From: a virus
Lineage: Duplodnaviria; Heunggongvirae; Uroviricota; Caudoviricetes
IMG/VR virus record: IMGVR_UViG_2718218360_000002
Reading direction: 5' to 3' (one strand)
Length of the DNA stretch: 64,000 nucleotides
Every line of letters starts with the position of its first letter. The first letter of the stretch is position 1. A program made the position numbers. Shown in pieces: positions 1 to 6,000 of this stretch.

Positions 1-3000
1 GTGAACTGGAAGCCGGTAAGGCCGCCACGGCGCAGCCGGTGAAACAGGCCGGTAACGGGAATGTGGCCGCGGTGGCTTCTGCGCCGGTGATCCGTGTGGA
101 GCAGAAACTGGATAAGGGGATTGGCTTCGCCCGCTTTGCCAAATCGCTGGCTGCGGCTAAAGGCGTCCGATCTGAAGCCCTGGAAGTGGCCCGTCGTCAG
201 TATCCGGATGACAGTCGTCTGCATCATGTCCTGAAATCGGCAGTGGGCGCGGGGACCACCACGGATCCGCAGTGGGCAGGCAGCCTGTCTGAATATCAGG
301 AATACGCACAGGACTTTATTGATTACCTGCGTCCGCAGACCATTATCGGGCGATTTGGTCAGGGCGGGATCCCTGCACTTCGTCAGGTGCCATTCAATAT
401 CCGTGTGCACGCCCAGGTGTCCGGCGGTGCTGCCGGCTGGGTGGGTGAGGGTAAGGCAAAACCCCTGACGAAGTTTGATTTTGAATCCATCACCTTCAGT
501 CATGCGAAGGTGTCGGCCATTGCGGTACTGACGGAAGAATTGATCCGTTTTTCCAGTCCGGCTGCTGATGCACTGGTCCGTAATGCGCTGGCGGAAGCGG
601 TGGTGGCGCGTCTGGATACAGACTTTGTGGACCCGAAAAAAGCCGCAGTGGCAGATGTCTCCCCGGCGTCCATCACCCATGATGTGAAGGGCACGGCATC
701 AACCGGTAACCCGGATGCGGATGCCGAGGCTGCGTTTGGACAGTTTGTGGCAGCAAACCTGCAGCCCACCGGTGCGGTCTGGCTGATGTCCAGCACGAAT
801 GCCCTGGCACTGTCCATGCGTAAAAATGCGCTGGGTCAGAAGGAATACCCGGACATGACCCTGCTGGGTGGCTCCTTCCAGGGGCTGCCGGTGATTGTCT
901 CCCAGTACGTGGGTGACCAGCTGGTGCTGGTGAATGCCCCGGATATTTATCTGGCGGATGACGGCGGCGTGGCAGTGGATATGTCCCGCGAGGCATCACT
1001 GGAAATGCAGTCTGAGCCGGGCGGCGACAGTACCACGCCGTCCCCGGTGGAGCTGGTTTCCATGTTCCAGACAGGCAGCGTGGCCATCCGTGCGGAGCGC
1101 TGGATCAACTGGCGTCGTCGCCGTACTGCGGCGGTGGCGGTGATCACCGGAGTGAACTACGGCAGTGCGTCCGGCGGCTGAGTCTGATAAGGAGGACGGG
1201 AGGCGTGCGCCTCCCGTAACAGGTTATGGCAAAGATCCGATATCTGCAGGGCACGCATGATGCCCGGGCCGGGGATATCCGTGATGTGGCACAGCCGTGT
1301 GCGGAGGTGCTGGTTCGCCTGGGAAGGCGGAGTACATCACGGTGCGACGTCCGGCAGGTCAGAAAAAGAAACGTGATGCGGAGCATGGCGAATGTGGAAC
1401 CTTTTACGGCGAACCCGAAAAAACCAGAAATCAGGACGTGACGTAAGAGAGGCGGGCTGGACCAGCCTGTTTCAGGCGGTGGCTGAGCCCTTTTCCGGCG
1501 CCTGGCAGCAGGGCGTGAAAGCCGATCCTGAAGCCGTCCTCTCCTTTATGCGGTGTTTGCATGTATTTCGCTGATATCCCAGGATATCGCCAAAATGCGG
1601 CTGCGTCTTATGCAGACGGATGCGCATGGGATACGCAGGGAAACGCGCCGGGGGGATATTGCCCGCCTCTGTCGTCGTCCCAACGCCCAGCAGAACCGCA
1701 TCCAGTTTTTTGAACTGTGGCTGAACGCCAAACTGCGTCATGGCAATACGGTGGTGCTGAAAATCCGTAATGCCCGGGGGCAGATCAAAGAACTGCGTAT
1801 TCTGGACTGGAGCCGGGTTGAACCTCTGGTGGCGGATGACGGCGAGGTGTTCTACCGCATCACGCCGGACCGGAACTGCGGGATCACGGAGGCGGTGACG
1901 GTGCCTGCCCGGGAAGTGATCCACGACCGGTTTAACTGTTTTTTTCATCCGCTTATAGGATTGCCGCCGGTGTATGCCGCCGGGCTGGCGGCCACGCAGG
2001 GGCATCATATTCAGGAAAATTCGACGTCTTTTTTCAGAAATGGCGGCAGGCCGTCCGGGGTGATTGAGATCCCCGGCAGTATTACGGAAGAAAATGCGAA
2101 AAAACTGAAGAGCAACTGGGACAGCGGGTATACAGGCGAAAATGCGGGGAAAACGGCCATTCTGAGCAACGGGGCAAAATACAACCCCACGACGTTTTCA
2201 CCGGTGGATGCGCAGACGGTGGAACAACTGAAGATGACCGCTGAAATTGTCTGTTCGGTGTTCCGTGTCCCGGCCTACAAGATTGGCGTGGGACAACCGC
2301 CTTCCAGTGACAACGTGGAGGCGCTGGAGCAGCAGTATTATTCCCAGTGCCTGCAGACGCTGATTGAGTCCATTGAACTGTTACTGGATGAGGCGCTGGA
2401 AACGGGGGAAAACGAGAGTACAGAATTTGATGTCACCACGCTGCTGAGAATGGACAGTGAGCGGCGCATGAAAACGCTGGGGGATGCGGTGAAAAATACG
2501 CTTCTCACGCCCAATGAGGCCCGTAAACGGGAGAACCTGCCGCCCCTGGCCGGCGGTGATGCACTGTATCTTCAGCAGCAGAACTACAGTCTGGAGGCGC
2601 TGTCCCGTCGTGATGCCCGTGAGGATCCGTTCGCGTCTGCCGGGAAAACAGTTTCATCACAGCTGCCTGACGGCGCATCTGACGGTAATAAGGCAATCAG
2701 TGAAACAGAGCATGATGCGGTGAAAGCGATGTTCAGGGGGGATACTGAGAAAATGACGGAACGGGAACTGTCCATTATTCGTGCACTGGGAGAAGAATTT
2801 TCCACAGTGCTGGCGGATTTACAGCGCACATTTGAGGAGAAAATAGCCGCGCAGGCACAAACGTTTGAAGAAAAACTGGCTTCTCAGTCTGTGGTATTAC
2901 AGAAGTGCGTGACGGGTGATGATGTGCGTCCGATGCTTGAGCAGATGGTGAAAGAGGCAGTGAGCCATATTCCTGTTCCGCGCGACGGTCGTGACTACGA

Positions 3001-6000
3001 TCCGGATGTTCTGCAGAAGGCGGTGAATGATGCGGTTGCGAATATTCCGGTACCGGCAGACGGCAAAAGTATCACCCCGGATGATGTGCGTCCGATGCTT
3101 GAGCAGATGGTGAAAGAGGCAGTGAGCCATATTCCTGTTCCGCGCGACGGTCGTGACTACGATCCGGATGTTCTGCAGAAGGCGGTGAATGATGCGGTCG
3201 CGAAAATACCGGTACCGGCAGACGGTAAAAGTATCACTCCGGATGATGTGCATCCGATGCTTGAACAGATGGTGAAGGAGGCGGTAAGCCATATTCCTGT
3301 TCCGCGTGATGGTCGTGACTACGATCCGGATGTTCTGCAGAAGGCGGTGAATGATGCGGTCGCGAAAATACCGGTACCGGCAGACGGTAAAAGTATCACT
3401 CCGGATGATGTGCATCCGATGCTTGAACAGATGGTGAAGGAGGCGGTAAGCCATATTCCTGTTCCGCGTGATGGTCGTGACTACGATCCGGATGTTCTGC
3501 AGAAGGCGGTTCTGGAGGCGGTGAGTGCCCTGCCGGCTCCGCAGGACGGGCGTGATGCCACGGCACTGGAAATACTCCCCGCCATTGACGATCAAAAATC
3601 CTTTCCCCGGGGCTCGTATGCCACACACCAGGGTGGACTCTGGCGGGCGTATGAAAAAACGCACGGGATGCGGGGATGGGAATGCCTGGTTGACGGGGTG
3701 GCGGATATCGACGTCAGCATGACGGATGAGCGGTTGTTCTCTGTGGTGATCCGGCAGAGCAGTGGCCAGTGTACGGAAAAAACATTTTCCCTGCCGGTGA
3801 TGCTCTACCGCGGTGTGTTCAGAGCCGGTAAAACCTACCACCCCGGCGATACGGTGACGTGGGGGGGCTCGCTGTGGCACTGCAACAGTATGACCGGTGA
3901 TAAACCCGGAGAAGCTCATTCATCAGCCTGGACCCTGGCTGCAAAACGTGGACGGGATGCAGGAGGCGGAAAATGACGGCATTACTGACACTGGAAGAGA
4001 TCAAGGCACATCTGCGTGTTGACCATGACGCGGATGATGACATGCTGATGGACAAGGTTCGTCAGGCTACCGCCGTGCTGCTGGCCTACATTCAGGGCAG
4101 CCGGGATAAAGTGATTCGTGAGGACGGTGAGCTGATCCCGGGCGAGGCATTAACCCGGATGAAGGGGGCTGCCATGCGACTGACCGGGATGCTGTACCGG
4201 AATCCGGATCTTGCTGAGCGGGAAGACCTCGTGCAGGGGGAACTGCCGTTTTCTGTGTCCGTGCTGATTTACGATTTGCGTTGTCCGACGGTGTTATGAG
4301 GAGGGAGGAATGGCAATATCTGCAGGTCGTCTGACACAGATGATAAGTGTTCTGAACCCGGTGTTAACCCGTAATGCTGCCGGAGAAATGACGGAAGAAT
4401 GGGTGTCATGCGGGAAAATTCATGCGGATATCCGTGGCAGGAGCAGCCGGGAGCGGATGCAGTCCGGTGCGGAAATGGCGCAGGCGGAAATCCGCATCTG
4501 GGTGCGCGGTCAGTCCGGCCGGGAAATCACGGCAGCGTCACGACTTCATGTGCTGAGTGGTCCATGGCGTGACCGGATCCTGAACGTTGTCGGGCTGCCC
4601 GTGCCGGATGCGACCGGCGGGCGTCTGGAAATTCTCTGTCGGCTGGGAGGGGAAAAATGATCGAAACCCTGCTGGATTTTTCGGGGCTGGAGGACATCAG
4701 CCGCGATTTGCAGCTTCTGAGTGGTGCGGAAAATAACCGGGTGCTGCGTGAGGCAACCCGTGCGGGTGCGAATGTGCTGAAAGAAGAAGTGGTGTCACGG
4801 GCACCGGTACGCAGGGGAAAACTGCGCCGCAATGTGGTGGTCCTTTCCCGGTGCTCCCGCGATGGCGGGATGGAATCCGGTGTGCATATCCGGGGTGTTA
4901 ATCCGGACACCGGTAACAGCGATAACACCATGAAGGCGGATAACCCGCGCAATGCTTTCTACTGGCGGTTTGTGGAAATGGGGACCGTGAATATGCCACC
5001 GCACCCGTTTGTGCGCCCGGCATTTGATGTGCGCAGTGAACAGGCGGCACAGGTGGCGATTGCTCGGATGAACCGGGCCATTGATGAGGTACTGAGACGA
5101 TGACGGAGGCGGATTTGTATCCTCATCTGGCGCATCTTGCCGGCGGGCAGGTGTACCCGTATGTGGTCCCCCTGCTGGATGGCAGGCCGTCGGTGGCGCT
5201 TCCGTGGGTGGTTTTCAGCCTGATTTCATCGGTGTCGGCGGACGTGATGGGCGGGCAGGCGGAGTCCTCAGTGTCGGTGCAGATAGACGTTTATGCCGGG
5301 ACTGTGACGCAGGCGCGTCAGATACGTCAGGACGCCCGTGAAGCCATAATGCTGCTGGCCCCGGGATCCGTCAGTGAAATGCAGGACTATATTCCGGAAA
5401 ACCGCTGTTACCGTGCAACCCTGGAGTTTCAGGTCACGGTGTGACTTTTTCTGTTTTCTACAAAACCCATACCCCGCCGCGTGCGGGTTTTTTATTATCA
5501 GGAGGCAGAATGTCTGCTTTGTATGAACGCTCACAGCTGACGCAGGTGATGATTTCATCTGCCCCGGCGACTGCTGAAACTATGGATAAGGCGGAATATC
5601 TGCGCCTGGACTGCACCATCAAGGAAGTCCAGTTCACCGCCGGTCAGAAACAGGATATTGATGTGACCACGCTCTGCTCCACAGAGCAGGAGAACATCAA
5701 CGGTCTGGGGGCGTCGTCCGAGATTTCCATGTCGGGTAATTTTTATCTGAATCAGGCCCAGAACGCCCTGCGTGATGCCTATGACAATGACACGGTGTAT
5801 GCGTTTAAGGTGCAGTTTCCGTCCGGTAAGGGCTTTAAGTTCCTGGCGGAAGTGCGCCAGCACACCTGGTCATCCGGTACCAACGGCGTGGTGGCTGCAA
5901 CGTTCTCACTGCGTCTGAAAGGCAAACCGGTGTCCTTTGTGGTACCGCTGGCGTTTGTGAAAAATCTGGATAAGACACTTACCGTGAATACCGGTGCGCT

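What the first reader, a model, noticed from the sequence alone, without database searches (positions are those of the whole stretch)
2918..3520. Portal gene carries an in-frame 162-bp tandem repeat array with two unit variants
About 3.7 copies of a 54-codon unit (DDV[R/H]PMLEQMVKEAVSHIPVPRDGRDYDPDVLQKAVNDAVA[N/K]IPVPADGKSITP) sit between the portal core and a ~150-aa C-terminal domain. Copies 1-2 share one variant and copies 3-4 the other, implying successive duplications. Repeat extensions on a portal are unusual and likely to vary in copy number. Antisense ORFs over this region are repeat artefacts.
Basis: seen in the sequence. Interest (0 to 1): 0.55.

Follow-up and report, generated by a model that had tools for sequence, protein, structure and literature searches.

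The report
Repeat stalk of portal-fused fibre gene
The 162-bp repeat is real and varies in copy number between related Shiga-toxin prophages, but it belongs to a widespread, uncharacterised fibre-like phage gene lying just after the portal gene, which an extra G in a G-run has fused to the portal here.

Summary
Observation confirmed. There is an in-frame 162-bp x 3.7 array at 2918-3510 (97% match), with an identical second copy at 60029-60621. It is not an assembly expansion: phage YYZ-2008 carries the same array, and relatives differ in exact 162-bp steps (0.66 to 6.66 units).

Interpretation partly supported. The array is not part of the portal. In BP-4795, 1717, Lys8385Vzw, Salmonella FSL SP-016, a Rhizobium phage and 32/32 species-level genomes, the portal ends with a conserved tail (..RG[LFI]L[TK]K*). 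Its TGA usually overlaps the ATG of a separate gene, here called X. The window has G6 instead of G5 at 2736-2741, which fuses portal and X. This allele is common: 41 versus 76 IMG/VR loci, and an exact match in 751 complete E. coli records.

X has three parts:
- an N-terminal helix;
- a variable stalk, here eight 27-aa helix + PxPxDGxD half-units, collagen-like G-X-Y runs in 72/150 homologues;

Of the 150 best homologues, 148 have no portal domain. X is most likely an accessory, probably trimeric, glycan-binding virion fibre whose stalk length changes by unequal recombination. Its location and function are inferred, not shown. Both portal copies in the window also carry private frameshifting indels, probably consensus errors.

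The parts
1392..1547 (+). First 52 codons of the portal gene (ATG at 1392), cut off from the rest of the gene by a 1-nt deletion after 1547
   Evidence: Alignment to phage YYZ-2008, whose gp54 starts at the equivalent ATG: the only differences over 1200-4300 are two 1-nt deletions, after 1323 and after 1547. The ORF list shows 1392..1574 and 1553..3976 in different frames. No complete E. coli genome shares these deletions.
1548..2752 (+). HK97-family portal core and its C-terminal tail region
   Evidence: PF04860 scores 268.6 bits (cut-off 39.1) over residues 2-328 of the 807-aa ORF. TIGR01537 portal_HK97 scores 338 bits (cut-off 112). The PDB portals 9lbn, 8cez/8fql (424 aa) and 6tba match residues 2-366 only.
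2736..2741 (+). G6 run; relatives with G5 end the portal at TGA 2754-2756 (..MFRGILRK*), while G6 reads through as ..MFRGDTEK-MTERE..
   Evidence: It is the only indel in this stretch relative to 1717 and Stx1_EH1995. The native tail RG[LFI]L[TK]K* is conserved in 20 Enterobacterales genomes.
2753..3976 (+). Gene X (407 codons plus stop): a fibre-like protein, a separate gene in most relatives, fused in frame to the portal here
   Evidence: It is annotated as a separate CDS with an ATGA overlap in BP-4795, Lys8385Vzw, Stx1_EH1995, 1717 and FSL SP-016. It is a separate stop-to-stop frame in 32/32 genomes. 148/150 representatives have no portal domain.
2753..2917 (+). N-terminal helical region of X (MTERELSIIRALGEEF...)
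   Evidence: The AlphaFold2 model has a helix at residues 3-50 with pLDDT 80-89. The N-terminal motif is conserved among Enterobacterales homologues.
2918..3510 (+). The 162-bp tandem array (3.7 copies), forming the variable stalk of X
   Evidence: Tandem Repeats Finder, unit anatomy, copy-number polymorphism.
3188..3511 (+). Most recent duplication: 3188-3348 is identical to 3350-3510 (a 162-bp unit in a shifted register)
   Evidence: Pairwise unit comparison: copies 2 and 3 are identical in the last 54 nt, and copies 3 and 4 are identical in the first 107 nt.
3511..3565 (+). Diverged eighth 27-aa half-unit (..LEAVSALPAPQDGRDATA) linking the array to the C-terminal domain
   Evidence: 27-aa register of the translation. 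Tandem Repeats Finder also reports a degenerate ~75-bp sub-period.
3566..3973 (+). Conserved C-terminal beta domain of X; the last part (about 3821-3913) is CBM5/12-like
3973..4299 (+). gp6-like head-tail adaptor gene; its ATG overlaps the TGA of X (ATGA)
   Evidence: PF05135 at E 7.8e-8. Sequence at 3970-3976. Conserved downstream neighbour of X.
2897..3919 (-). 340-aa antisense ORF across the array, probably not a gene
   Evidence: It is listed mechanically. Its product is itself repetitive, and all homology is in the sense frame.
59864..61087 (+). Second copy of gene X in the window, with an identical array at 60029-60621
   Evidence: Tandem Repeats Finder. Window 1-6889 versus 57116-64000 is 99.8% identical, with no difference after 2742.

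Best explanation
The array encodes the variable-length stalk of a separate virion protein (gene X, 2753-3976). X lies between the portal gene and the gp6-like adaptor gene in a head module conserved across Proteobacteria. Its start overlaps the portal stop and its stop overlaps the adaptor start, which suggests translational coupling.

X has three parts:
- an N-terminal helix;
- an extended spacer, here eight 27-aa 'short helix + PxPxDGxD' half-units; relatives have PEPEPLPD-type units or collagen-like G-X-Y runs instead;
- a conserved beta domain ending in a CBM5/12-like carbohydrate-binding fold.

Shown here:
- X is a separate gene in nearly all relatives.
- In this window a G5 to G6 insertion at 2736-2741 replaces the portal's last residues (ILRK*) and fuses X in frame to the portal. 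This allele is common among E. coli prophages.
- Repeat number changes in whole 162-bp units (1 to 7 DDV.. units), while the protein sequence stays under purifying selection.

Inferred:
- Unit gain and loss occurs by unequal recombination or replication slippage between near-identical units.
- X assembles as a trimeric fibre on the outside of the virion, probably at the head or neck. Its knob binds surface glycans to aid adsorption, and repeat number sets its reach.
- The fused allele is a tolerated, probably function-reducing, frameshift variant rather than the designed form.
For: Separate gene and fusion:
- The portal and X are separate CDSs in BP-4795, Lys8385Vzw, Stx1_EH1995, 1717, FSL SP-016 and Rhizobium phage RHph_X2_26.
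- A single G is the difference at the junction.
- In 32/32 species-level genomes the portal and X are in separate frames. The Enterobacterales portal tail ..RG[LFI]L[TK]K* is conserved, and TGA/ATG overlap is the rule.
- 148/150 best representatives lack a portal domain, and the C-terminal domain is always terminal.
- Allele counts: 41 G6 versus 76 G5 IMG/VR loci; exact G6 junction in 751 complete E. coli records and exact G5 junction in 367.

Copy-number variation:
-. The 74 intact X ORFs split as 245 aa x2, 299 x4, 353 x18, 405/407 x41, 461 x7, 515 x1, 569 x1.
- Synonymous changes outnumber non-synonymous ones between units.

Fibre-like architecture:
- The AlphaFold2 model shows an N-terminal helix, alternating 13-17-residue helices and 12-residue linkers, and a beta C-terminal domain.
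- 72/150 homologues have at least 4 consecutive G-X-Y triplets, and 44 have at least 6.
- The C-terminal domain resembles CBM5/12 domains and phage tail-fibre or collagen-repeat proteins.
Against: - No experiment or paper was found that places X in the virion.
- The stalk is modelled with low confidence (pLDDT 40-55) and only as a monomer.
- PF02839 is below its cut-off in this protein.
- The portal C-terminus faces the capsid interior in all solved portals (general knowledge). A fused X therefore could not sit outside the capsid. Yet the fused allele is very common, keeps X intact about as often as the split allele does (24/30 versus 50/56), and is present in phage 2851. From memory, phage 2851 is an infectious Stx2c phage (Strauch et al. 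2008, which I could not read).
- A second, apparently independent portal-X fusion exists (P0243, 1237 aa).
- These last points fit an internal, portal-bound location at least as well as an external one.
Confidence: 0.7

Rival explanations
1. X is an internal, portal-associated head protein, in the manner of SPP1 gp7 / MuF-type minor head proteins or ejection proteins. It would sit inside the capsid next to the portal crown and perhaps be ejected. The fusion to the portal C-terminus would then be topologically natural, and the extended repeat spacer plus a GlcNAc-polymer-binding-like knob would act in the periplasm or on peptidoglycan.
For: - The gene lies immediately after the portal and overlaps its stop.
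- The fused allele is abundant and X stays intact in it.
- Phage 2851 carries the fusion.
- There is an independent fusion, P0243.
- Some homologues have Pro-rich rod-like PEPEPLPD spacers.
Against: - No Pfam MuF or other minor-head match.
- Collagen-like stalks and CBM5/12 knobs are typical of external fibres. The structural neighbours are tail fibres and chitinase binding modules.
- X also overlaps the downstream adaptor gene, and adaptors sit outside the capsid.
- 148/150 homologues are unfused.
Confidence: 0.2
2. The ORF is a genuine long portal whose C-terminal repeat extension is the functional, designed form; the split versions would be the mutants.
For: - There is a continuous ORF here and in YYZ-2008, 2851, FRIK2533 and Sakai Sp6.
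- PHROG 2271 models an 859-aa portal.
- The exact G6 junction occurs in 751 complete E. coli records.
Against: - The portal tail ending in a stop is conserved at protein level in other genera that have no G-run.
- Fusions are 0/32 in species-level genomes and 2/150 among representatives.
- Solved HK97-type portals are 393-431 aa long.
Confidence: 0.05
3. The G-run is a programmed ribosomal or transcriptional slippage site, so that one allele yields both the plain portal and a portal-X fusion in a set ratio.
For: - There is a G5/G6 homopolymer 12-17 nt before the stop/start overlap.
- In the G5 frame it is followed by the rare codons AGG-GGG-AUA..AGA.
- Both alleles persist at high frequency, sometimes in one genome.
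Against: - A G-run of at least 5 at this site occurs in only 2/32 other genomes; most read AGAGGA.
- There is no canonical X XXY YYZ heptamer.
- No stimulatory structure was sought, and no product data exist.
Confidence: 0.05
4. The array, or its copy number, is an assembly artefact.
For: - Short-read assemblies often break inside this gene.
- The window's portal copies carry private indels that look like consensus errors.
Against: - The same 3.66-unit array is found in YYZ-2008 and twice in the window.
- It is the modal allele in IMG/VR loci (41/74).
- Other alleles differ by exact in-frame units.
Confidence: 0.02

Closest known systems
HK97-family portal protein (PF04860 / TIGR01537; HK97 gp3, PDB 8cez/8fql)
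   Same: Residues 2-~370 of the 807-aa ORF match strongly. The gene sits in an HK97-like head-tail module with gp6-like adaptor, head closure and gp10-like genes.
   Different: The repeat array and C-terminal domain lie wholly outside the portal family. Homologous portals stop before them. The gene order is unusual: terminase, protease-MCP fusion, small ORF, portal.
Phage fibres with segmented or collagen-like stalks and a distal binding knob (T4 fibritin/wac whiskers, phi29 head fibre gp8.5, SPP1 gp12, collagen-repeat tail fibres)
   Same: Shared layout of N-terminal helix, repeated short helices or G-X-Y runs of variable number, and a C-terminal globular domain. Structural neighbours in BFVD are collagen-repeat and tail-fibre proteins.
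   Different: There is no detectable sequence homology to any solved fibre. The trimeric state, attachment site and function are untested. The 27-aa helix + PxPxDGxD unit is not a described repeat type, as far as my searches show.
CBM5/12 chitin-binding modules (PF02839; ChiB, ChiC, ChiA1 binding domains)
   Different: The Pfam score is below cut-off in this protein (20.3 versus 26.2). The ligand is unknown. A further beta subdomain, with no clear match, precedes it.
Portal-adjacent or portal-fused minor head proteins (SPP1 gp7 / MuF family, including portal-MuF fusions)
   Same: The gene lies directly downstream of the portal and is occasionally fused to it.
   Different: There is no MuF domain, and the architecture is fibre-like rather than globular.
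Coding minisatellites / VNTRs in phage and bacterial surface proteins
   Same: Long in-frame units of at least 97% identity, with copy number polymorphic among close relatives in whole units.
   Different: The repeat sits in a head-module gene that is annotated, wrongly, as 'portal protein'.

Membership tests
HK97-family portal (PF04860 / TIGR01537) | Profile match above the curated cut-off | tested here: met
   268.6 bits against 39.1; 338.2 bits against 112.05; both cover residues 2-334 only.
HK97-family portal (PF04860 / TIGR01537) | The feature in question (repeat array plus C-terminal domain) lies within the family's domain | tested here: not met
   The profile ends at residue ~334. Solved portals match only to residue 366. 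Orthologous portals terminate at ..RG[LFI]L[TK]K* before the array.
HK97-family portal (PF04860 / TIGR01537) | Intact reading frame from the start codon | tested here: not met
   A 1-nt deletion after 1547, relative to YYZ-2008 and all other records, separates the first 52 codons. It may be a consensus error.
CBM5/12 carbohydrate-binding module (PF02839) | Pfam score at or above the gathering cut-off (26.2 bits) | tested here: not met
   20.3 bits in the window protein. Of the homologues scanned, only P0124 passes, at 29.8 bits.
CBM5/12 carbohydrate-binding module (PF02839) | Fold similarity to solved CBM5/12 domains | tested here: met
CBM5/12 carbohydrate-binding module (PF02839) | Binds chitin or another glycan | not testable with these tools
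   Needs binding assays.
Collagen-like triple-helix fibre (PF01391-type G-X-Y runs) | Runs of consecutive G-X-Y triplets | tested here: not met
   There are none in the window's X; its linkers are PVPRDGRDYDP / PVPADGKSITP. They are present in 72/150 homologues (at least 4 triplets) at the equivalent position.
Trimeric phage fibre (fibritin / head-fibre type) | Homotrimer with an extended stalk, attached to the virion surface | not testable with these tools
   Only a monomer model was possible. Trimerisation is inferred from collagen-like relatives.
MuF / SPP1 gp7 portal-associated minor head protein | MuF-family domain | tested here: not met
   No such Pfam, PHROG or NCBIfam match for X or its homologues.
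MuF / SPP1 gp7 portal-associated minor head protein | Gene immediately downstream of the portal | tested here: met
Programmed frameshift site | Slippery sequence conserved among relatives | tested here: not met
   A G-run of at least 5 occurs in 2/32 genomes.
Programmed frameshift site | Two protein products from one allele | not testable with these tools
   Needs proteomics or reporter assays.
Coding VNTR / minisatellite | Head-to-tail near-identical units, with copy number polymorphic among close relatives and the frame kept | tested here: met

The most novel reading that the evidence does not exclude
The G5/G6 run works as a heritable, reversible switch, or a low-level slippage site. It would decide whether X is made free, as an external fibre, or tethered twelve-fold to the portal crown inside the capsid. 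One prophage lineage could then produce two kinds of virion. Alternatively, X is a new class of portal-anchored internal or ejected protein whose reach is tuned by repeat number.
Probability: 0.1. Interest if true: 0.7.

Novelty: new variant of a known kind. Interest (0 to 1): 0.42.

Why it matters
Three reasons.

1. Annotation. Thousands of database proteins named 'phage portal protein', or even 'gp6-like connector', are really an uncharacterised gene family that took its name from a frameshift fusion.

2. Biology. A conserved head-module gene is present from E. coli Stx phages to Rhizobiales prophages, with 5,818 50%-identity clusters at E<=1e-3. It has fibre-like architecture, a carbohydrate-binding-like knob and a fast-evolving stalk length. 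That makes it a candidate accessory adhesin of Stx-converting phages, which spread Shiga toxin genes.

3. Practice. The 162-bp array breaks short-read assemblies. Its unit number and the G5/G6 state are simple markers for telling apart the many near-identical lambdoid prophages in O157 genomes.

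Tried and rejected
- **Weak Pfam hits in the repeat.** TetR_C_35, DUF4244, FliG_N and similar hits have no significant single stretch, are at or below cut-off, and are inflated by repetition. I rejected them.
- **PF28083.** It is listed in precomputed annotations of some hits but is not in the Pfam copy I could scan, so it remains unresolved.
- **First protein search.** It was swamped by partial E. coli fragments. The 50%-clustered library and a profile of distant C-terminal domains were needed instead.
- **PDB sequence searches.** With the protein and with a profile, they gave only portal and CBM-like hits.
- **Foldseek with the full-length model.** It gave only weak local CBM hits.
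- **Literature searches.** Searches on portal repeats in Stx phages, BP-4795, FSL SP-016, virion proteomics, head fibres and 9LBN found nothing on this gene. Strauch et al. 2008 on phage 2851 is not held.
- **The search for related loci with the 40-sequence alignment.** It failed for lack of a conserved stretch. A 6-sequence alignment worked.
- **X-adaptor fusion.** The 'gp6-like connector' names suggested such a fusion. I rejected it, because those proteins are contig-end fragments and the adaptor is a separate gene.
- **ECP19-2498 and FRIK2455 as the source.** I tested whether the window is collinear with each. It is not collinear with ECP19-2498 beyond the tail genes. It matches FRIK2455 100% over 18000-42999, but the head modules differ.

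Full report
**1. The observation**

Tandem Repeats Finder reports a single strong array at 2918-3510: period 162, 3.7 copies, 97% matches, no indels, score 1053. A weak ~75-bp sub-period is also reported.

At DNA level the variants form a mosaic. In the first 108 nt of the unit, copies 1 and 2 are identical and copies 3 and 4 are identical, with 7 differences between the two pairs. In the last 54 nt, copy 1 differs at 5 sites from the identical copies 2 and 3. Positions 3188-3348 equal 3350-3510, so the youngest duplication is a 162-bp block in a shifted register.

The 54-aa unit is itself two 27-aa half-units: D(D/P)DV..L...V..AV..IPVP.DG... There are eight half-units in all, the last one diverged. 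Differences between units are mostly synonymous (for example 10:2 between copies 1 and 3), so the repeat is translated and constrained.

**2. Where the window comes from**

The region is 99.9% identical to Stx prophage YYZ-2008 and closely related to the long-tailed lambdoid prophages of E. coli O157:H7, such as Sakai Sp6 and phages 2851, 1717 and BP-4795. The gene order is: terminase small and large subunits, a 645-aa protease-MCP fusion, a small ORF, the portal, a gp6-like adaptor, head closure, then tail genes.

Relative to YYZ-2008, the window has two 1-nt deletions, after 1323 and after 1547. The second cuts the first 52 portal codons (ATG at 1392) off from the rest of the gene.

The window also holds a second head module at 57116-64000. 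It is 99.8% identical to 1-6889 and has an identical array at 60029-60621. Its portal core carries several further private indels. None of the 1,243 complete E. coli genomes with this locus shares any of these indels. The closely related strain FRIK2455 has its own, different indels at the orthologous locus. I read them as consensus errors in multi-copy prophage DNA, although private decay cannot be excluded.

**3. The key result: two genes, not one**

In BP-4795, Lys8385Vzw, Stx1_EH1995 and 1717 the same DNA is annotated as two CDSs. A 454-aa portal is followed by a second gene whose ATG overlaps the portal's TGA.

Alignment shows one relevant difference. The window has six G at 2736-2741 where these phages have five. 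With G5 the portal ends ..MFRGILRK*. With G6 it reads ..MFRGDTEK and runs into MTERELSII.., the start of the second gene.

The two-gene form is ancestral:
- Salmonella phage FSL SP-016 and Rhizobium phage RHph_X2_26 both have the order protease-MCP, small ORF(s), portal, X, adaptor, with X separate.
- A scan of one genome per species recovered 36 loci. All 28 with full flanks show protease-MCP, portal, X in that order. The adaptor was detected in 23 of them.
- In all 32 loci that include both genes, the portal and X are in separate frames.
- In Enterobacterales the portal tail ..RG[LFI]L[TK]K* is conserved at protein level and the TGA/ATG overlap is the rule. A G-run of at least 5 occurs at this site in only 2 of the 32.

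The fusion is therefore a +1 frameshift in a lineage-specific homopolymer, not a conserved recoding site. It is nevertheless common. The G6 junction is in 41 IMG/VR loci against 76 for G5. It is matched exactly in 751 complete E. coli records, against 367 for one G5 variant. It is also present in YYZ-2008, Sakai Sp6, FRIK2533 and phage 2851.

**4. Gene X as a family**

A query of the last 1.7 units plus the C-terminal domain was run against 1.84 billion cluster representatives. It finds 5,818 proteins at E<=1e-3 and 601 at E<=1e-30, mostly 250-500 aa long. Of the best 150, only two contain a portal domain: the E. coli cluster itself and P0243, a 1,237-aa fusion with about 20 PEPEPLPD-type units.

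The conserved C-terminal domain is always at the C-terminus, and the part before it ranges from 53 to about 600 residues. PHROGs and NCBI call these proteins 'portal protein', or even 'gp6-like connector'. The scans show no portal or connector domain in them. The 'connector' examples are contig-end fragments lying next to a separate adaptor gene. No curated family, solved structure or paper that I could find describes X.

**5. Copy number**

Among Stx phages the span across the array differs by -486, -324, -162, 0 or +162 bp, and FRIK2533 has one unit fewer than the window.

In IMG/VR loci, the 74 intact X ORFs have these lengths:

| X length (aa) | 245 | 299 | 353 | 405/407 | 461 | 515 | 569 |
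|---|---|---|---|---|---|---|---|
| Loci | 2 | 4 | 18 | 41 | 7 | 1 | 1 |

These correspond to 0.66 to 6.66 units. Other lengths are premature stops.

X is truncated in 6/30 G6 loci and 6/56 G5 loci, so the fused allele is not obviously decaying faster. More distant relatives carry from 1 to about 20 units of other types. What is conserved is an extended spacer of variable length, not its sequence.

**6. Structure**

With a 36-sequence alignment, AlphaFold2 models X as follows:
- a confident N-terminal helix (residues 3-50, pLDDT 80-89);
- a low-confidence chain of 13-17-residue helices separated by 12-residue linkers (pLDDT 40-55);
- a beta-rich C-terminal domain.

Seventy-two of 150 homologues carry at least 4 consecutive G-X-Y triplets in the stalk or tail, which points to a trimeric, collagen-like assembly for the family. 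The window's own linkers are not G-X-Y.

**7. Mechanism**

Shown:
- The array is the central, length-variable part of a conserved protein encoded between the portal and the adaptor.
- It changes in whole in-frame units.
- This allele is fused to the portal by one extra G.

Inferred:
- Units are gained and lost by unequal recombination or slippage between near-identical units.
- X is a trimeric fibre with a glycan-binding knob, and repeat number sets its reach.
- Given its position and its start/stop overlaps with both neighbours, X associates with the portal vertex or neck.

The main difficulty is topology. Portal C-termini face the capsid interior (general knowledge from solved portals), so a fused X cannot be an external fibre. 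Three readings are possible:
- The fused allele is a tolerated loss or reduction of an accessory function. An internal ATG at 2753, preceded by GAG, might still give some free X.
- X is natively an internal, portal-bound protein. This is the main rival, at about 0.2.
- Low-level slippage restores the native products, at about 0.05.

The comparative data cannot decide between an external and an internal location.

**8. Verdict**

The interpretation needs correcting: this is not a portal with a repeat extension. It is a portal fused by a homopolymer frameshift to a neighbouring, widespread and uncharacterised fibre-like gene whose stalk is a coding minisatellite.

This is a new variant of a known kind, namely phage fibres with variable repeat stalks and CBM knobs. 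Interest is moderate. It lies in the mis-annotated family, the frequent G5/G6 alleles, and the open question of where X sits in the virion.

Noticed in passing
window 54074-64000: A second lambdoid head module: TerS 54074-54637, TerL 54634-56295, 645-aa protease-MCP fusion 56359-58296, a broken portal, X, adaptor and tail genes. It is 99.8% identical to 1-6889 and lies 57.1 kb downstream, so the window spans two neighbouring prophages.
   Followed up: partly
window 1323, 1547; 58633, 58765, 58793, 58879, 59081, 59828, 59852-59853: Private 1-2-nt indels are clustered in the small ORF and portal core of both copies and break the reading frames. No complete E. coli genome shares them (best hits 99.4-99.5%). 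FRIK2455 has different indels at the same locus. They look like long-read consensus errors in multi-copy prophage DNA, but real decay is not excluded.
   Followed up: partly
window 39-1181 and 56359-58296: The major capsid protein is fused to an N-terminal prohead protease (645 aa). This fusion precedes the portal in every related module found, from E. coli to Rhizobiales. That is an unusual head-gene order.
   Followed up: partly
window 2750-2756 and 3970-3976: The same AAAATGAC stop/start overlap links portal to X (in G5 alleles) and X to the adaptor. This suggests translational coupling of the three genes.
   Followed up: partly
window 23772-26214: An ISEc8 (IS66-family) copy, 100% identical over 2,443 bp to the one in strain ECP19-2498.
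   Followed up: no
window 18000-42999: This stretch is 100% identical to FRIK2455 1821201-1846201. The annotation there includes the type III effector gene nleA, a phage integrase, an exonuclease and an IS630 transposase, so it covers the junction between the two prophages.
   Followed up: no
window 18153-18243: A 45-bp x 2 repeat encoding collagen-like G-X-Y triplets ([14 protein letters not shown]), in the tail-fibre region.
   Followed up: no
L127-L129 (Klebsiella contigs); proteins P0001-P0120: Short-read assemblies end inside gene X. Three Klebsiella assemblies break at the same point, and hundreds of E. coli 'partial portal proteins' start or stop in the array. The repeat is a systematic assembly breakpoint.
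   Followed up: partly
L002 (Sakai Sp6) 6194-8695; L019; L121: Some alleles, including Sakai Sp6, carry a frameshift near the end of the C-terminal domain (..TWGARCGTATV*) that truncates the CBM-like part.
   Followed up: no
window 5441-6226: The ORF following the tail-terminator gene is annotated in YYZ-2008 as an immunoglobulin-domain protein (a major tail subunit with an Ig-like C-terminal part). It is another possible surface-adhesion module in the same virion.
   Followed up: no
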